Virus record (IMG/VR): IMGVR_UViG_3300008113_010842
DNA length: 60,918 bases
Direction: 5' to 3' (one strand)
Source: an uncultured virus (IMG/VR IMGVR_UViG_3300008113_010842)
Lineage: Duplodnaviria; Heunggongvirae; Uroviricota; Caudoviricetes
Part shown: in pieces, positions 4,627-55,926 of the stretch
How the letters are laid out: the number at the start of each line of letters is the position of its first letter
How positions within the stretch are numbered: the stretch's first letter is position 1
Notes under the pieces: generated by a model
The model's input: the letters and a program-made list of their open reading frames with translations, nothing else
Told to the model about the DNA's origin: nothing
Databases searched by the model: none
Translations under genes and position numbers: made by a program

Positions 4627-5724
4627 TTAAGCTACTGTTAGGAAAATTTTCCTACTTGTTCTATCAACTGATAGAACTTTTACTTTTAAATCTTGGCCCG
4701 GTGTAAACTTCTTTTTCAATTTTTCCATCTCGGAAGTATGAATGAGTCCAACGGTTTCTTCATCAAGATTTACTAATGTTCCGAAAGGTTTTACATCTTT
4801 TACAGAACCTTCAATTACCTGACCATTTTTGATAGTGTCCCACAATGTTTCTCTAAGAATTTGTGTAAGAATTAACTTAGGTAAATATTTATCTCGAATA
4901 ATTTCTTTAATGTAGAAAGTAATCTCGAAGCCTGGCTTAATTTCATTGATTCTTTCTTGCCATTCAGGATTAATGTTAGCTTTATGAATCATGCCTGTAA
5001 GACACTCGTTGAATTCAACAAATACTCCGAATGGAGTTGTGCCTGTCACATGTCCGTCATAGGTCACATTATATTCAAGATTTTTTACTGCTTCAGGAAT
5101 TAACGTTTGTAAATATTTTCTTCTACTTACAATGTAAGTTCCTTCCTGTTCAGCATAAGATTCGATCATTACCTCAAATGTTTGACCAACGATTGAGTTA
5201 GGATCGTGTAACTTATTGATTCCTGCTAATGTGTTAGGCATAAAACCAGGTAGTGTTACACCACCATGCATAAGTTCAACGTCATATCCAGCAGGATTTA
5301 GTGATTTAATGTGAGCTGTAACTGAAGCTCCTTCCTCAAGAGATTTCAGATTTTGATGAGCTCTAGATTCATAAAGTTCAGATATACTTCCTCTAATGTA
5401 AAAGTGGTTATTATCAACATTTACGATGAGCACATCAACAAAGTCACCTTCTGATACGTTTTTTAGATATTTGCTTTCTGAAGTTCTATTTTCAACTCGA
5501 ATATCATCTTTATATCCTGGAACATGAAATACATGTTGATTTGCATTCAGTCCTTGATATTCTGCTGAGATAATGTCACCTTTATTTGGAATTTTCAAAG
5601 CAGTTTTTTCATAAAGTTTTGCCAATTCTTTGTAAGAATCGCTTTTTTGTCTTGATTTAAATGAGCTATCGTCAAATAAGTAGTCAAGTTCTGGGTTTCC
5701 GATTATTGTTTCTGTCATATTCAT
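4627..5724 (-). CDS. rpsA: Ribosomal protein bS1-like multi-S1-domain RNA-binding protein
   Basis: About four S1 repeats (GHVTGTTPFGVFVEF..LTGMIH; GSVKDVKPFGTLVNL...GLIHTSE...KVKVLSVD...KIFL) plus IVSRR linker. Confidence 0.8.
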   Translation of the reverse strand: MNMTETIIGNPELDYLFDDSSFKSRQKSDSYKELAKLYEKTALKIPNKGDIISAEYQGLNANQHVFHVPGYKDDIRVENRTSESKYLKNVSEGDFVDVLIVNVDNNHFYIRGSISELYESRAHQNLKSLEEGASVTAHIKSLNPAGYDVELMHGGVTLPGFMPNTLAGINKLHDPNSIVGQTFEVMIESYAEQEGTYIVSRRKYLQTLIPEAVKNLEYNVTYDGHVTGTTPFGVFVEFNECLTGMIHKANINPEWQERINEIKPGFEITFYIKEIIRDKYLPKLILTQILRETLWDTIKNGQVIEGSVKDVKPFGTLVNLDEETVGLIHTSEMEKLKKKFTPGQDLKVKVLSVDRTSRKIFLTVA

Positions 5725-29294: not shown

Positions 29295-29393
29295 ATGAGA
29301 GCAATTCGTAAACATAGCACATTTAGTAAATCGTCTTGGTTTAGTCACCAAGGTTCGGTACTAAAAGAGTATTGCTCAAATTTAAAGGTATAA
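29295..29393 (+). CDS. Attenuator leader peptide 1, MRAIRKHSTFSKSSWFSHQGSVLKEYCSNLKV
   Basis: R/K/H/S/F/W codon patch matches array 1; contains AGGTTCGG, complementary to the terminator arm. Confidence 0.8.
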   Translation: MRAIRKHSTFSKSSWFSHQGSVLKEYCSNLKV

Positions 29394-29417
29394 AAACTTA
29401 TAAAGACAATATAATTT

Positions 29418-29449
29418 AACCCGAACCTCGAAAGAAGTTCGGGTTTTTT
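29418..29449 (+). terminator. Attenuator terminator 1
   Basis: AACCCGAAC-CTCGAAAGAA-GTTCGGGTT followed by a T-tract. Confidence 0.85.
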
Positions 29450-29473
29450 ATTTATAAAAAATAATTTTTAGAT

Positions 29474-29878
29474 TTGAAACAGATAAGAGATTATAATTAT
29501 AAAATTTCCGAAAGTGGAGAAATAATAAATTTAAGTAATGGTAAAGTTAAAGGTCAATGGATAAACTCAAGTGGTTATTATTGTGTTGAATTAACTATTG
29601 ATAAGTGTAAAAAGAAAAAGTTTTTAACACATAGATTAGTCGCTGAAACATATTTGGAATTACCAATTATTGAAAAAAAAGTACAAATTGATCACATAAA
29701 TAGAAATAGAATAGATAATCACTTTTCAAATTTAAGATGGGTTACATCATCTGAGAATTGTAAAAATAAAAATAGAGTTAAAGTAAAAATGGATGATATT
29801 AATAGCATAATTGAAATGTTCAAAAATGGAGAAACTATTGATAATATTTATAAAATTATAAATTGTTTTTGTCTGTAA
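29474..29878 (+). CDS. NUMOD4/HNH homing endonuclease
   Basis: YKISESGEI, GYYCVEL, HRLVAETY, IDHINRNRIDNHFSNLRWVT..EN; TTG start. Confidence 0.85.
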   Translation: MKQIRDYNYKISESGEIINLSNGKVKGQWINSSGYYCVELTIDKCKKKKFLTHRLVAETYLELPIIEKKVQIDHINRNRIDNHFSNLRWVTSSENCKNKNRVKVKMDDINSIIEMFKNGETIDNIYKIINCFCL

Positions 29879-30230: not shown

Positions 30231-30235
30231 AAATT

Positions 30236-30306
30236 ACGTCATACAGACAAGGTGTCGGTCAGGCCTCCAAAACCTCGACGGGTGGGTTCAATTCCTACAT
30301 GGCGTG
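30236..30306 (+). tRNA. tRNA-Trp(CCA), atypical D and anticodon arms
   Basis: Acceptor ACGTCAT/ATGGCGT; loop CTCCAAA; G73. Confidence 0.7.
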
Positions 30307-30314
30307 CTAATAAT

Positions 30315-30442
30315 GGGGATGTAGCTCAGTGGTAGAGAAAACTATCTCTTTTGAAATTTTACCTCGTAAGAGTGTTGATTAAAAGAGTTACTTCGTATAT
30401 TTTGAAATTATAAGGTCGTTGGTTCGAATCCAACCATCCCCA
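30315..30442 (+). tRNA. tRNA-like RNA with ~56-nt insertion (apparent anticodon TGA)
   Basis: Perfect acceptor GGGGATG/CATCCCC, D arm and T arm GTTGG-TTCGAAT-CCAAC; hairpin insert between D and anticodon arms. Confidence 0.6.
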
Positions 30443-30450
30443 CAAAAAAT

Positions 30451-40467: not shown

Positions 40468-40470
40468 ATT

Positions 40471-40538
40471 GGGTTGAGTTATGGTGACGGCCGGATCTGT
40501 AAAATCCTAGCAGTTGAGTTCGAGTCTCAGGCAACCCA
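40471..40538 (+). tRNA. Atypical short tRNA-Tyr(GTA)-like
   Basis: Acceptor GGGTTG/CAACCC, GGAT-CTGTAAA-ATCC, T arm; reduced D arm, no long variable arm. Confidence 0.6.
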
Positions 40539-40543
40539 CAAAT

Positions 40544-40631: not shown

Positions 40632-40663
40632 TTTGGTAGATTAAAAATATTTACTTATCTTTG
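40632..40663 (+). promoter_or_regulatory. Internal Bacteroidota-type promoter within array 2
   Basis: TTTG-GTAGA..(N20)-TATCTTTG. Confidence 0.8.
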
Positions 40664-42438: not shown

Positions 42439-42442
42439 CTAC

Positions 42443-42518
42443 GGGCTAGCATGTTCCAAGGCTTCGGCGACTTACCCTTGCAAGGTAGGTGTGGTGGGTT
42501 CGATTCCCATCTGGTCCA
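42443..42518 (+). tRNA. tRNA-Ala(TGC)
   Basis: TTACC-CTTGCAA-GGTAG; G3:U70 pair. Confidence 0.8.
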
Positions 42519-42528
42519 CAAAAAATAA

Positions 42529-47069: not shown

Positions 47070-47158
47070 GGGCTTGTAGCTGATTTGGTTTTAGCTGGTG
47101 ACTGTTAATCACTGTATGAAAAATTGAAATAAAGTAGGTTCGAATCCTGCCTGGCCCG
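47070..47158 (+). tRNA. tRNA-Asn(GTT) with ~20-nt variable region
   Basis: GGTGA-CTGTTAA-TCACT; G73. Confidence 0.75.
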
Positions 47159-47169
47159 CAAAAATAAAT

Positions 47170-47791: not shown

Positions 47792-47797
47792 CAAAAT

Positions 47798-47867
47798 GCC
47801 GCGGCTTAGTGGAAAAGGACATTGGCTCATATCCTGTGTTAAGTGAGTTCGAACCTCATACGCGGTA
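47798..47867 (+). tRNA. Atypical tRNA with CAT anticodon (Met or Ile2)
   Basis: Acceptor GCCGCG/CGCGGT, loop CTCATAT, reduced D arm, elongated anticodon stem. Confidence 0.6.
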
Positions 47868-47875
47868 CAATATAA

Positions 47876-47948
47876 GCCCCTGTGACGTAATTGGTAGTCG
47901 TATTCGTTTCAAATGCGGAGTGTCCGAGTTCGAATCTCGGTAGGGGTA
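47876..47948 (+). tRNA. tRNA with CAA (Leu) anticodon but short variable loop
   Basis: TTCGT-TTCAAAT-GCGGA; 4-nt variable loop. Confidence 0.65.
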
Positions 47949-47981
47949 CAAACCAGATATATAAATAAAAAAAAATATATT

Positions 47982-48308
47982 ATGGTAGCAAGTATAACTG
48001 ATGAGAACTTTCAAGAAATAATTATAAGTTCTGACAAACTAATTTTAGTTGATTTTTGGGCTGAGTGGTGTAACCCGTGTAAAGCTTTGGCTCCTGCTTT
48101 AGAAGAGGCATCAAATGATTTAGGTGAAAAAATAATTGTATATAAAGTTAATATTGATGAAAATCCAGTCACTCCTCAAAAATATGGTGTCAGAGGAATT
48201 CCAACAATTATATTTTTTAAAGGTGGTGAAGTAGTGGATAGACAAGTAGGTGTATTACCAAAATCAAAACTTTATGAAAAAATAGAAGATGTTTTGTCTA
48301 ATAATTAA
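47982..48308 (+). CDS. trxA: Thioredoxin (start re-assigned to MVASIT)
   Basis: VDFWAEWCNPCK; the upstream in-frame extension overlaps a tRNA. Confidence 0.92.
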   Translation: MVASITDENFQEIIISSDKLILVDFWAEWCNPCKALAPALEEASNDLGEKIIVYKVNIDENPVTPQKYGVRGIPTIIFFKGGEVVDRQVGVLPKSKLYEKIEDVLSNN

Positions 48309-54885: not shown

Positions 54886-54978
54886 TTATATTTTTTTTAA
54901 TTAAAACTTATTTCTATATTTGTAGTATAATTTTGACAAATAATTAAAAGAGGTAAAAATAATTTAATATATACTAAA

Positions 54979-55074
54979 ATGAACAACGTAATTGTAAATA
55001 TCGCAGTAGTTAACCCACAACCGCAGGATCAGGATCGTGTGAGAGTGGCTAACTATGTATTTACAATAAGTTAA
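54979..55074 (+). CDS. Attenuator leader peptide 5, MNNVIVNIAVVNPQPQDQDRVRVANYVFTIS
   Basis: CCA-CAA-CCG-CAG-GAT-CAG-GAT patch matches the Gln/Asp/Pro array; TGGCTAACT pairs with the terminator arm. Confidence 0.85.
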   Translation: MNNVIVNIAVVNPQPQDQDRVRVANYVFTIS

Positions 55075-55097
55075 TGTTTAATTAAAAACGAATTTGT

Positions 55098-55132
55098 AAA
55101 ACCCGGTTAGTCAAAATCTAATCGGGTTTTTT
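55098..55132 (+). terminator. Attenuator terminator 5
   Basis: AAAACCCGGTTAG-TCAAAAT-CTAATCGGGTTTT plus T-tract. Confidence 0.88.
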
Positions 55133-55142
55133 GTTATTATAT

Positions 55143-55215
55143 TGTCGGGTCGTCTAGTTTGGCAGGACGCAAGATTTTGGCTCTTGAAACACAGGTTCGA
55201 TGCCTGTCTCGACAT
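55143..55215 (+). tRNA. tRNA-Gln(TTG)
   Basis: CAAGA-TTTTGGC-TCTTG; U1:A72. Confidence 0.88.
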
Positions 55216-55222
55216 CAAATAC

Positions 55223-55295
55223 GGATGTGAGGTCAAACGGTTAAGATGTCTGCCTGTCACGCAGTTCGGAGCGGGTTCAACTCCCGTCACGTCCG
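55223..55295 (+). tRNA. tRNA-Asp(GTC)
   Basis: CTGC-CTGTCAC-GCAG; G73. Confidence 0.88.
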
Positions 55296-55304
55296 CTAAA
55301 ATTT

Positions 55305-55387
55305 CGGGATGTAGCCTAGAGGTTACGCAAGTTAGAGGCACTTGGTTTGGGACCAAGACGACGCAGGTTCGATTCCTGTCATCCCGA
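55305..55387 (+). tRNA. tRNA-Pro(TGG) with enlarged D loop
   Basis: CTTGG-TTTGGGA-CCAAG; C1:G72. Confidence 0.85.
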
Positions 55388-55401
55388 CAAAAATAAACGA
55401 T

Positions 55402-55926
55402 ATGATAGACGGAACATTATACATTGACAATTTTATAGATAACGATAGTTTTCTATTTGATACACTAAGAGATAATTCTGATTGGGATAGAAGAATGGCT
55501 TCTAGATTAACAACATCATTTGGTGTTTCTTATAACTATTCTGATATATCTTATCCAGATGTTATCATACCAAATTATTTAGATGATTTGATAGTTAGAA
55601 TAAATGATGTTGTTGGTTTCACACCAAATAACTGCTTAGTGAATTACTATTTAGATGGTAGATCTAAGATGGGTTATCACTCAGATAGAACTGATATACT
55701 TTTACCAGGAACTGGAGTTGTTATTATATCTTTAGGTTCAACTAGAACATTGAGATTTAGAAATATAAATGATAGAAGTATAGTTGATTTTAGTTTAAGA
55801 AGTGGTTCACTTTTTTATATGACATCTGATGTTCAGGATTTATGGGTTCATTCTATTCCTGTTTCTGATGTTGATGGTAGTAGAATGAGTTTAACTTTCA
55901 GAAATCTCAATCCATCTACCATCTGA
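55402..55926 (+). CDS. AlkB-family 2OG-Fe(II) dioxygenase (start re-assigned to MIDGTL)
   Basis: NNCLVNYY.DG...MGYHSD, ISLGSTR.L.FR, L.SGSLFYM, WVHSIP, RMSLTFR. Confidence 0.92.
   Translation: MIDGTLYIDNFIDNDSFLFDTLRDNSDWDRRMASRLTTSFGVSYNYSDISYPDVIIPNYLDDLIVRINDVVGFTPNNCLVNYYLDGRSKMGYHSDRTDILLPGTGVVIISLGSTRTLRFRNINDRSIVDFSLRSGSLFYMTSDVQDLWVHSIPVSDVDGSRMSLTFRNLNPSTI

What the first reader, a model, noticed from the sequence alone, without database searches (positions are those of the whole stretch)
54979..55387. Attenuator 5: PQPQDQD leader ahead of Gln, Asp, Pro tRNAs
Codons 13-19 (CCA CAA CCG CAG GAT CAG GAT) use only the three amino acids of the array and sample both A- and G-ending Pro and Gln codons. 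TGGCTAACT (55046-55054) pairs with GGTTAGTCA (55105-55113) using two G:U pairs, and TTTACAA/TTGTAAA extends it. The upstream N/V/I-rich stretch matches array 4 instead, so it may be filler or cross-talk.
Basis: partly seen in the sequence, partly recalled or inferred. Interest (0 to 1): 0.85.

Follow-up and report, generated by a model that had tools for sequence, protein, structure and literature searches.

The report
Leader-peptide attenuator controlling phage tRNA genes
A huge phage places a tiny gene rich in proline, glutamine and aspartate codons, plus a switchable stop signal, in front of its proline, glutamine and aspartate tRNA genes, so it probably makes these tRNAs only when ribosomes run short of them.

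Summary
A 31-codon ORF (54979-55074) carries PQPQDQD at codons 13-19. A strong intrinsic terminator follows (55099-55132), with tRNA-Gln 11 nt after it, then tRNA-Asp and a tRNA-Pro(UGG) that ARAGORN miscalls as Leu.

In folds of the nascent transcript, a ribosome stalled at codons 2-18 leaves this antiterminator intact. A ribosome further on blocks it.

The unit recurs in 23 loci (19 distinct sequences) and in a divergent 642-kb phage. The Pro and Gln codons change synonymously, and compensatory changes keep the helices paired.

The window holds five such units and relatives hold up to seven. Each leader is rich in the codons read by its own downstream tRNAs, down to isoacceptor level. The true leader-to-array pairing beats all others (1 of 5040, 1 of 720, 1 of 24, 1 of 24).

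Best reading: a trp-type ribosome-mediated attenuator that regulates tRNA genes, working as a homeostat of decoding capacity. I found no report of this in six full-text searches. No expression data exist, so function is inferred.

The parts
54915..54922 (+). Promoter -7 box TATATTTG (Bacteroidetes sigma-A type, TAnnTTTG). The -33 TTTG is degenerate here (TTTT) but intact in relatives.
   Evidence: Sequence and alignment with relatives. The full TTTG-N17-21-TAnnTTTG motif occurs 11 times in the window against 4.4 expected, and 5 of these precede leaders or tRNAs. Consensus as quoted in PMC7366714 (passages). Promoter function is inferred.
54964..54973 (+). TTAATATATA gene-start motif, 15 nt upstream of the leader ATG
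   Evidence: 12 copies in the window against 1.8 expected. The same motif sits 14-17 nt upstream of the ATG of ordinary protein genes (42724, 53766, 56346) and of leader 1 (29279). Whether it acts in transcription or in translation initiation is unknown.
54979..55074 (+). Leader ORF, 31 codons plus stop: MNNVIVNIAVVNPQPQDQDRVRVANYVFTIS
   Evidence: Conserved in 23 loci.
55015..55035 (+). Control codons 13-19, PQPQDQD (CCA CAA CCG CAG GAT CAG GAT). All are readable by the downstream Pro(tgg), Gln(ttg) and Asp(gtc) tRNAs.
   Evidence: The third position of both Pro codons varies A/G/T among relatives with no change of residue set.
54991..55018 (+). Region 1: 5' strand of the 1:2 hairpin (the N/V/I-rich codons 5-14)
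   Evidence: MFE structure. Helix 13-23/79-89 is paired in 84.7% of cells, with a C-G/U-A swap (7 and 7 sequences).
55045..55067 (+). Region 2: pairs either with region 1 or with region 3 (antiterminator). It lies inside codons 23-30.
55094..55113 (+). Region 3: TTGTAAA..GGTTAGTCA, partner of region 2. It overlaps the 5' arm and loop of the terminator.
   Evidence: antiterminator appears when codons 2-18 are occupied. (93.8% of cells paired; 24-54% when the partner is slid).
55099..55132 (+). Intrinsic terminator: 12-bp stem AAACCCGGTTAG / CTAATCGGGTTT, 7-nt loop, T6 tract
   Evidence: 97.1% of cells paired across 19 sequences, with an A-U/G-C swap (10 and 8 sequences).
55143..55216 (+). tRNA-Gln(UUG), 11 nt after the T tract
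55223..55296 (+). tRNA-Asp(GUC)
55305..55388 (+). tRNA-Pro(UGG) with a 10-nt D-loop insert (ARAGORN: Leu gag)
   Evidence: Rfam tRNA, 59.2 bits; alignment with the Pro tRNAs of relatives.
55402..55926 (+). AlkB-like 2OG-Fe(II) oxygenase gene, 13 nt after tRNA-Pro with no terminator between. It probably lies in the same attenuated transcript.
   Evidence: PF13532, E = 1.2e-22. The scan found no + strand terminator between. Co-transcription is inferred.

Best explanation
This is a ribosome-mediated (leader-peptide) transcription attenuator that controls a phage tRNA array.

Transcription starts at a Bacteroidetes-type promoter about 55 nt upstream of the leader ORF. A ribosome translates the 31-codon leader while RNA polymerase continues.

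If tRNA-Pro(UGG), tRNA-Gln(UUG) and tRNA-Asp(GUC) are plentiful and charged, the ribosome runs through PQPQDQD onto region 2 (55045-55067). Region 2 then cannot pair with region 3. The terminator hairpin (55099-55129) forms and transcription stops 11 nt before tRNA-Gln.

If any of these tRNAs is scarce, the ribosome stalls at codons 13-19 and region 2 stays free. It pairs with region 3 to form the antiterminator. Polymerase then reads through into Gln-Asp-Pro, and probably into the AlkB-like gene.

The product of the regulated genes is the molecule being sensed. The unit is therefore a negative-feedback homeostat of decoding capacity for CCN, CAR and GAY codons. It belongs to a set of five units in this window, and up to seven in relatives, each tuned to its own array.

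Shown: the anatomy, the alternative pairings, the conservation and covariation, and the leader-to-array correspondence. Inferred: translation of the ORF, coupling of ribosome and polymerase, terminator efficiency, and the response to tRNA supply.
For: (1) Anatomy.

(2) Fold: the whole leader gives a 1:2 hairpin plus the terminator at -47.2 kcal/mol, z = -5.8.

(3) Nascent-transcript folds with a 30-nt ribosome mask. With no ribosome the 1:2 hairpin forms (-29.5) and the terminator arm is free. With the A site at codons 2-18 the region 2:3 antiterminator forms (P about 0.56-0.76). From codon 19-20 on it is lost.

(4) The same boundary, at or within three codons of the end of the cognate cluster, appears in 17 of 17 units of three genomes. 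It also appears in 18 of 19 distinct A5 leaders and in both LR756502.1 leaders.

(5) Conservation. 23 loci carry the leader and terminator (5 from BLAST, neighbour-gene or pattern scans, 18 from a metagenome pattern scan; 19 distinct). Of these, 21 show downstream tRNAs, which are only Gln, Asp, Pro or uncalled ones; the other 2 contigs end first. Both Pro codons vary A/G/T at the third position and one P is replaced by Q, which stays within the set.

(6) Covariation. Antiterminator pair 86-118 is C-G in 11 sequences and U-A in 7. The same region-2 bases covary with region 1 (pair 15-87: C-G 7, U-A 7). Terminator pair 128-149 is A-U 10, G-C 8.

(7) A divergent homologue found by BLAST, not by the pattern (LR756502.1), has the leader ..QVQRQVVVDQDQPD.. 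before Pro Pro Asp Asp Asp. A second leader, MTTSFQQQQQQQINRTD, precedes four tRNA-Gln genes. LR745206.1 has MTTTQQIQQQQINQTD before three tRNA-Gln genes and a gene whose start reads like a class-I glutaminyl-tRNA synthetase, named by eye and not by a family search.

(8) Family-wide match of leader codons to the unit's own array. The true assignment is the single best of 24, 720, 24 and 5040 permutations, at both amino-acid and codon level.

(9) Isoacceptor specificity. Leaders before Ile(tat) use ATA. Leaders before Ile(gat) use ATT. Leaders before Arg(tct) use AGA. Those before Arg(acg) use CGC.

(10) The leader carries the same TTAATATATA start motif as ordinary protein genes.

(11) The T tract ends 11 nt before tRNA-Gln and the spacers inside the array are 6-8 nt, which leaves no room for another promoter.

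(12) Host context: the over-634-kb relatives were predicted to infect Bacteroidetes (PMC7162821, passages). Leader-peptide attenuation signatures are reported in Flavobacterium amino-acid operons (PMC9723704, passage).
Against: There is no experimental or expression evidence. Three RNA-labelled runs held only tRNA-Asp-like and AlkB-like pieces from relatives and nothing on the leader.

At equilibrium the terminator always wins, with P about 0.97-0.99 at every ribosome position. The model therefore depends on co-transcriptional kinetics and on ribosome-polymerase coupling, which are unknown for this host and for whichever polymerase transcribes these genes.

The 1:2 'anti-antiterminator' hairpin is predicted in only 5 of 19 distinct A5 leaders and 5 of 17 units. 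It is not a conserved part of the device.

Covariation rests on few evolutionary events; the 7 sequences with the swap form one clade. Measures that count pairs or pair types do not exceed shuffles. 22 nt of the leader were fixed by my search pattern, so their conservation in the 18 metagenome loci is by construction.

The duplex test of leader against terminator arm is only moderately specific: 13 of 5040, 1 of 720 and 2 of 24 (tied). For window A5 the matched arm is not the best in its row.

There is no Shine-Dalgarno sequence near the ATG. This is expected for Bacteroidetes, but the host is inferred.

In array 2, internal promoters bypass the attenuator for some tRNAs. A 735-kb relative shows no leader in the 8 kb examined.
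Confidence: 0.8

Rival explanations
1. The device is the same, but the physiological signal is amino-acid supply (tRNA charging), as in classical biosynthetic attenuators. Starvation for Gln, Asp or Pro, rather than a shortage of tRNA molecules, opens the array.
For: A stalled ribosome cannot tell an absent tRNA from an uncharged one (established for trp/his-type attenuators; recalled). In LR745206.1 the Gln leader and array are followed directly by a gene whose start reads like a glutaminyl-tRNA synthetase, named by eye only. That would tie the unit to charging.
Against: Leader codons follow the isoacceptor carried by the array, not only the amino acid: ATA against ATT for Ile, AGA against CGC for Arg. 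That is expected if the tRNA species is what matters. Making more tRNA does not relieve amino-acid starvation, so regulation on that signal would be futile.
Confidence: 0.1
2. The hairpin is a plain, constitutive (leaky) terminator or a processing and stability element. It ends the transcript of a small protein gene or insulates the array. The match between peptide and tRNAs has no regulatory role.
For: At equilibrium the terminator is predicted at every ribosome position. There are no expression data. The C-terminal half of the peptide (VANYVFTIS) is conserved.
Against: The conserved C-terminal codons are region 2. Where they change (ACA to ATG), both RNA partners change in compensation. This points to selection on the RNA and not on the peptide.

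The leader-to-array correspondence is the unique optimum in four genomes, and the only P/Q/D run in the window sits here. Region 2 complements the terminator arm in 93.8% of cells.
Confidence: 0.06
3. The nascent peptide itself (for example PQPQDQD in the exit tunnel) arrests the ribosome regardless of tRNA supply, or in response to a small molecule. This would resemble arrest-peptide leaders such as TnaC, which I recall and did not test.
For: Pro- and Asp-rich stretches can slow peptide-bond formation (PMC8129111, abstract only).
Against: The sister leaders have quite different peptides (YYYKE, IATGAG, NLTLNVVNITLCNIR, QQIQQQQ), each matching its own array. A peptide-specific arrest does not explain this pattern.
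Confidence: 0.02
4. The leader RNA binds tRNAs directly in the manner of a T-box, with the codons acting as specifiers and without translation.
For: The leader holds codons complementary to the anticodons of the downstream tRNAs.
Against: There is no T-box or other Rfam match, at gathering thresholds or up to E = 10. Seven tandem in-frame codons, an ATG with the phage's gene-start motif, an in-frame stop and synonymous third-position drift all fit translation.
Confidence: 0.02

Closest known systems
Leader-peptide attenuators of amino-acid operons (trpL, hisL, leuL, thrL, ilvL, pheL of Proteobacteria). Recalled textbook knowledge; pheL is also described in PMC3082878 (abstract).
   Same: A short ORF with a run of regulatory codons, an intrinsic terminator, an antiterminator that uses the terminator's 5' arm, and control codons placed just upstream of region 2. 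All were tested here.
   Different: The regulated genes are tRNA genes, not biosynthetic enzymes, so the sensed molecule is the product itself. The element is in a phage. The leader mixes three amino acids that share no pathway. There is no sequence or covariance-model similarity to any Rfam leader family. The 1:2 hairpin is not conserved.
pheST attenuator (pheM leader before phenylalanyl-tRNA synthetase, E. coli). Recalled.
   Same: A leader-peptide attenuator that regulates a component of the translation apparatus according to how well its own codons are decoded. In LR745206.1 the Gln leader, three tRNA-Gln genes and a gene that reads like a glutaminyl-tRNA synthetase lie in a row.
   Different: pheM controls a synthetase. 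Here the first and main regulated genes are the tRNAs themselves.
Multivalent attenuators (thr operon: Thr plus Ile codons; ilvGMEDA: Ile, Val, Leu). Recalled.
   Same: One leader samples several amino acids. Here these are P, Q and D, and possibly N, V and I upstream.
   Different: In thr and ilv the mixture reflects a shared pathway. Here it reflects which tRNA genes happen to lie downstream.
T-box riboswitches (Rfam RF00230)
   Same: They adjust the expression of translation-related genes to the state of a specific tRNA through a terminator/antiterminator switch.
   Different: A T-box binds the tRNA directly and needs no translation. None of its conserved features is found here.

Membership tests
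Ribosome-mediated (leader-peptide) transcription attenuator | Short ORF with a credible start upstream of the regulated genes | tested here: met
   A 31-codon ATG ORF. It has the same TTAATATATA motif 14-17 nt upstream as ordinary protein genes. The ORF is kept open in 23 of 23 loci. Translation itself was not observed.
Ribosome-mediated (leader-peptide) transcription attenuator | Cluster of regulatory codons specific to what is regulated | tested here: met
   PQPQDQD stands before the Gln, Asp and Pro tRNAs. It is the only such run in the window. The true leader-to-array assignment is the unique best of all permutations in four genomes. Isoacceptor-level match.
Ribosome-mediated (leader-peptide) transcription attenuator | Intrinsic terminator between the leader ORF and the regulated genes | tested here: met
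   A 12-bp stem plus T6 at 55099-55132, 11 nt before tRNA-Gln. 97.1% of cells paired in 19 sequences.
Ribosome-mediated (leader-peptide) transcription attenuator | Antiterminator that is mutually exclusive with the terminator | tested here: met
   Region 2 (55045-55067) pairs with region 3 (55094-55113). 93.8% of cells paired, against 24-54% in slid controls. One C-G/U-A swap in 7 sequences.
Ribosome-mediated (leader-peptide) transcription attenuator | Control codons placed so that a stalled ribosome frees region 2 and a ribosome further on covers it | tested here: met
   The antiterminator is predicted for the A site at codons 2-18 and lost from codon 19-20. The same boundary holds in 17 of 17 units and in 18 of 19 A5 leaders plus LR756502.1. 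This rests on a folding model with an assumed 30-nt footprint.
Ribosome-mediated (leader-peptide) transcription attenuator | 1:2 hairpin (anti-antiterminator or pause hairpin) that gives termination without translation | tested here: inconclusive
   Strong in the window (-29.5 kcal/mol). Predicted in only 5 of 19 distinct A5 leaders and 5 of 17 units.
Ribosome-mediated (leader-peptide) transcription attenuator | Read-through rises when the cognate charged tRNA is limiting | not testable with these tools
   This needs a reporter or a coupled in vitro system. The RNA runs were uninformative.
Known leader families (Rfam Trp, His, Leu, Thr and Phe leaders) | Match to the family covariance model, with amino-acid biosynthesis genes as the regulated target | tested here: not met
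   No hit at gathering thresholds in the whole window other than tRNA. The best sub-threshold hits on the leader are unrelated and lie far below their cut-offs. The downstream genes are tRNAs.
T-box riboswitch | Stem I with a specifier loop and the conserved T-box sequence | tested here: not met
   No RF00230 match at gathering thresholds or at E up to 10.

The most novel reading that the evidence does not exclude
The five to seven attenuators form a two-tier network that senses decoding capacity.

Every leader begins with a shared module of codons read by the array-4 tRNAs (Thr, Asn, Ile, Val; the commonest AT-rich decoders). A private module for its own array follows. A general loss of tRNAs would then open all arrays, and a specific loss would open only one.

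Most units are predicted to read through when no ribosome translates the leader. The arrays would therefore also switch on when translation collapses. This would let a huge phage rebuild the cell's tRNA pool on demand, for example after its own shut-off of the host or after cleavage by a host anticodon nuclease. It would be the first case of tRNA genes regulated by direct readout of their own decoding activity.
Probability: 0.3. Interest if true: 0.92.

Novelty: new variant of a known kind. Interest (0 to 1): 0.88.

Why it matters
Leader-peptide attenuation has been the textbook way bacteria match amino-acid synthesis to demand. Here the same logic is wired to tRNA genes, in a virus. The regulated product is the very molecule the sensor reads.

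If confirmed, phage tRNA genes would not simply be expressed to fit codon usage. They would be supplied on demand, codon family by codon family. That would make the long-standing question of why large phages carry tRNAs directly testable: the leaders name the codons whose decoding the phage monitors.

It would also give a compact natural part for tRNA homeostasis circuits. And it offers a sequence signature (leader composition equals downstream anticodons) for finding such units in other genomes.

Tried and rejected
- **Whole-genome search:** none is held for this window.
- **Equilibrium folding with a masked ribosome:** the terminator is predicted at every ribosome position (P 0.97-0.99), so it cannot discriminate. 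I replaced it with folds of the nascent transcript cut before the terminator's 3' arm.
- **RNA evidence:** of 24 runs listed, three RNA-labelled runs held about 5% of the words. When laid, they cover only tRNA-Asp-like pieces and the AlkB-like gene, at 90-99% likeness, so from relatives. There is no cover of the leader and no ends. This says nothing either way.
- **Rfam:** no leader, T-box or other family.
- **Duplex energy of each leader against each terminator 5' arm:** only moderately specific, and not best-in-row for window A5. The arm alone omits the loop bases and the upstream TTGTAAA that take part in the A5 antiterminator.
- **LR756501.1 (735 kb):** in the 8 kb around its tRNA-Asp genes I saw no terminator or leader unit. 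The system is therefore not universal in this phage group, or it lies elsewhere in that genome.
- **sigma-70 promoter scan:** 21 sites against 15.8 expected, so not informative for this host type.
- **Literature:** searches found no paper on leader-peptide or attenuator control of tRNA genes. The one 'tRNA operon' hit (PMC3082878) concerns supercoiling of a Salmonella tRNA promoter.
- **Not used:** protein structure, complex and atlas tools. The ORF is a 31-residue leader.
Full report
**1. Observation**

- An ATG at 54979 opens a 31-codon ORF, MNNVIVNIAVVNPQPQDQDRVRVANYVFTIS, that ends at 55074.
- Codons 13-19 (55015-55035) read CCA CAA CCG CAG GAT CAG GAT.
- TGGCTAACT (55046-55054) and GGTTAGTCA (55105-55113) are complementary over 9 pairs, two of them G:U. 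TTTACAA and TTGTAAA extend the helix.
- A terminator-like hairpin lies at 55098-55130. Its T tract ends 11 nt before tRNA-Gln(ttg) at 55143. tRNA-Asp(gtc) and a third tRNA follow.
- ARAGORN calls the third tRNA Leu(gag). It aligns with the tRNA-Pro(tgg) genes of relatives, has the anticodon loop TTTGGGA, and differs by a 10-nt insert in the D-loop. The array is therefore Gln, Asp, Pro.
- The P/Q/D run is the only run of five or more such residues in all six frames of the window (121,832 residues; 0.003 seven-residue runs expected).

**2. Setting**

The window is AT-rich phage DNA.
- Its closest records are uncultured huge phages LR745206.1 (634,780 bp) and LR756502.1 (642,428 bp).
[quoted passage not shown] It contains neither 'attenuat' nor 'leader' (PMC7162821, passages). 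I did not map the accession numbers to that paper.
- The leader is preceded by TATATTTG (54915-54922). This fits the -7 box TAnnTTTG of the Bacteroidetes primary sigma factor (consensus as quoted in PMC7366714, passages).
- Relatives also have the -33 TTTG. The full motif is enriched in the window (11 against 4.4 expected), and 5 of its 11 copies precede leaders or tRNAs.
- No Shine-Dalgarno sequence stands near the ATG. That is normal for this phylum (PMC9723704, passages).
- Instead, TTAATATATA lies 15 nt upstream. This motif occurs 12 times in the window against 1.8 expected, at 14-17 nt before the ATG of ordinary protein genes as well. The leader therefore looks like a normal gene start of this phage.

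**3. Alternative structures**

- The whole leader folds into a long 1:2 hairpin plus the terminator (-47.2 kcal/mol, z = -5.8).
- At equilibrium the terminator wins wherever a ribosome is placed. This is also true of classical attenuators, so I modelled the nascent transcript cut before the 3' arm of the terminator.
- With no ribosome, the 1:2 hairpin forms (-29.5) and the terminator's 5' arm is free.
- With a 30-nt ribosome mask and the A site at codons 2-18, region 2 (55045-55067) pairs with region 3 (55094-55113).
- From codon 19-20 onward the ribosome covers region 2 and the antiterminator is lost.
- The P/Q/D codons are thus the last positions at which a stall still gives antitermination. 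That is where control codons sit in trp-type leaders (recalled).

**4. Relatives of this unit**

How the loci were found:
- The neighbouring gene, a BLAST hit and two pattern scans gave 23 loci with this leader. 19 are distinct and one is identical to the window.
- The metagenome pattern fixed 22 nt (CAGGATCARGAY, N11, GGCTAACTATGT). Conservation of those bases in the 18 metagenome loci is by construction.

What the loci show:
- All 23 keep the ORF and a terminator.
- 21 show tRNAs downstream. These are only Gln, Asp, Pro or uncalled ones. The other two contigs end first.
- Outside the fixed bases, the two Pro codons vary A/G/T at the third position. One P is replaced by Q, which stays within the set.

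Pair counts on the 19 sequences:
- Antiterminator: 93.8% of cells paired (24-54% when slid). Pair 86-118 is C-G in 11 and U-A in 7.
- The same region-2 bases covary with region 1 (pair 15-87: C-G 7, U-A 7; helix 84.7% paired).
- Terminator: 97.1% paired, with pair 128-149 A-U in 10 and G-C in 8.
- The swaps sit in one clade, so they stand for few events. The measures that count pairs or pair types do not exceed the shuffles.

LR756502.1 was found by BLAST of the promoter region and not by the pattern. It has a reshaped leader, MKNLILNIAIQVQRQVVVDQDQPDTTEANCDFIRE, before Pro Pro Asp Asp Asp. There the predicted boundary moves with the cluster, to codon 24.

**5. The family**

Units in the window:

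| Unit | Leader | Downstream tRNAs |
|---|---|---|
| A1 | MRAIRKHSTFSKSSWFSHQ.. (29296) | Phe Lys Lys His |
| A2 | ..YYYKE.. | Glu, Tyr |
| A3 | ..VIATGAG.. | Ile(tat) Gly Gly Ala |
| A4 | ..NLTLNVVNITLCNIR.. | Arg(tct) Asn Val Ile(gat) Cys Thr Leu |
| A5 | this one | Gln Asp Pro |

- In A1, an HNH endonuclease gene lies between the terminator and the array.
- Relatives add SKSSSRSS before Arg(acg) Ser, and QQIQQQQ or QQQQQQQ before three or four tRNA-Gln genes.
- In LR745206.1 the Gln array is followed by a gene whose N-terminus reads like a class-I glutaminyl-tRNA synthetase. I named it by eye and not by a family search.
- Counting leader codons that the downstream tRNAs can read, the true assignment is the single best permutation in every genome: 1 of 24 (window), 1 of 720, 1 of 24 and 1 of 5040.
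- The match holds at isoacceptor level: ATA with Ile(tat), ATT with Ile(gat), AGA with Arg(tct), CGC with Arg(acg).
- In 17 of 17 units of three genomes, the predicted loss of the antiterminator falls at or within three codons of the end of the cognate cluster. In the A4 units the last two or three cognate codons lie past the drop, and the pairing returns for a ribosome at the last codons.

**6. Mechanism**

The best reading is a ribosome-mediated attenuator.
- Smooth translation of the leader lets the terminator form.
- Stalling for want of tRNA-Pro, tRNA-Gln or tRNA-Asp leaves region 2 free and the antiterminator forms. Polymerase then enters the array, and probably the AlkB-like oxygenase gene 13 nt after it (PF13532).
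- Because the genes under control encode the tRNAs being sensed, this is negative feedback on decoding capacity.
- The isoacceptor-level match favours sensing of tRNA species over sensing of amino acids.
- In most units, though not in this window's A5, the fold without any ribosome already shows the antiterminator: P is 0.5 or more in 12 of 17 units and 14 of 19 A5 leaders. The conserved core is therefore 'translation through region 2 causes termination'. The 1:2 hairpin of the window is an extra, not a constant.

All of this is inference from sequence. Translation, coupling, terminator strength and the response itself were not observed.

**7. The N/V/I stretch**

- Codons 5-14 are the 5' strand of the 1:2 hairpin in the window. 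Part of the stretch (NVNI, VN) is conserved, and the rest varies, for example FKMNITQVN in L015. A structural role is therefore real.
- Yet 9 of codons 2-12 are readable by array-4 tRNAs. The figure is 29-31% in 51 long ORFs, and only 8 of 16,116 eleven-codon windows reach 9.
- Codons 2-7 of all leaders other than A4 share this bias (25 of 36 in LR745206.1, 13 of 18 in the window). The leaders may be paralogues, so these are not independent counts.
- A stall anywhere in codons 2-18 gives the same predicted outcome.
- Both 'filler' and 'cross-talk' remain possible. I put cross-talk at about one in three.

**8. Comparison with known systems**

- It works like the trp, his, leu, thr, ilv and phe leaders and like the pheST leader (recalled). 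It meets the structural criteria I could test.
- It is not a member of any curated leader family or of the T-box family.
- It differs from all of them in what it regulates.
- A signature of leader-peptide attenuation before amino-acid operons has been noted in a Flavobacterium transcriptome (PMC9723704, passage). The host phylum therefore seems able to use the mechanism.

**9. Novelty**

- Six full-text searches combined leader peptide, attenuation or attenuator, tRNA genes, operon or array, phage, huge phages, viral tRNA, and ribosome stalling. None returned a paper describing attenuator or leader-peptide control of tRNA genes.
- The library lacks most subscription journals, so this is no proof of absence.
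- I rate it a new variant of a known kind: classical mechanism, new target class, new logic (the product senses itself), in a virus.

**10. Limits**

- RNA runs gave nothing on the leader.
- The 735-kb relative showed no such unit in the 8 kb I read.
- Array 2 has internal promoters that bypass its attenuator for some tRNAs.
- The ribosome footprint (A site -15 to +14) and the truncation point of the nascent transcript are modelling choices.

Noticed in passing
window 55305-55388: This tRNA-Pro(UGG) carries a 10-nt insert in its D-loop relative to the Pro tRNAs of related phages, and ARAGORN misreads it as Leu(gag). Several other tRNAs here and in relatives are 84-92 nt long (Asn at 47070-47159; Gln and Pro in L002). 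Whether the inserts are tolerated, removed or inactivating is unknown.
   Followed up: partly
window 29296-29450 and 29474-29878: Attenuator 1 (leader MRAIRKHSTFSKSSWFSHQ.., terminator about 29419-29450) is separated from its Phe-Lys-Lys-His array (from 29922) by an HNH_3 plus NUMOD4 homing-endonuclease ORF. Relatives have no such insert. The endonuclease gene would then be under attenuator control.
   Followed up: partly
window, 12 sites (e.g. 29279, 42724, 53766, 54964, 56346): TTAATATATA occurs 12 times against 1.8 expected, at 14-17 nt upstream of the ATG of both leaders and protein genes. It could be a phage-specific promoter (recalled: resembles the T4 late TATAAATA) or a translation-start element in a host without Shine-Dalgarno sequences.
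   Followed up: partly
all leaders; window 40342, 42146, 46800, 54979; L008-L011: Codons 2-7 of every leader are enriched in codons read by array-4 tRNAs (Thr ACA, Asn, Ile ATT). The counts are 25 of 36 in LR745206.1 and 13 of 18 in the window, against about 31% in long ORFs. Possible causes are common ancestry of the leaders, a preference for A-rich codons at initiation, or a shared 'global' sensing module.
   Followed up: partly
window 40632-40663; L006 8010-8045: A full TTTG..TAnnTTTG promoter motif lies inside array 2, directly before a tRNA-Glu and without a leader. Some tRNAs therefore escape attenuation.
   Followed up: no
window 40470-40543, 30231-30450, 42440-42520, 47797-47870: These stretches between called tRNAs look like further tRNA genes that ARAGORN and Rfam did not call. 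One has a CAT anticodon loop at about 47830, and one seems interrupted by an insert of about 60 nt at 30325-30445. I read them by eye only.
   Followed up: no
window 55402-55926 and 47913-48308; L001 4786 onward: Each array is followed closely, on the same strand, by a protein gene. An AlkB-like 2OG-Fe(II) oxygenase follows array 5 and a thioredoxin follows array 4. In LR745206.1 a gene that reads like a glutaminyl-tRNA synthetase follows the Gln array. These genes may share the attenuated transcripts.
   Followed up: partly
L024 (metagenome contig), terminator after the A5 leader: Here the terminator stem is replaced by a different sequence (CCCTCATAAG / CTTATGAGGG). The AGTTAG element that pairs with region 2 now sits in the loop. 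The predicted antiterminator is weaker (P about 0.4). It is a natural variant worth testing.
   Followed up: no
window 4627-5724 (- strand): A 365-aa protein with S1 RNA-binding domains. This is the kind of translation-related gene reported for huge phages (PMC7162821, passages).
   Followed up: no
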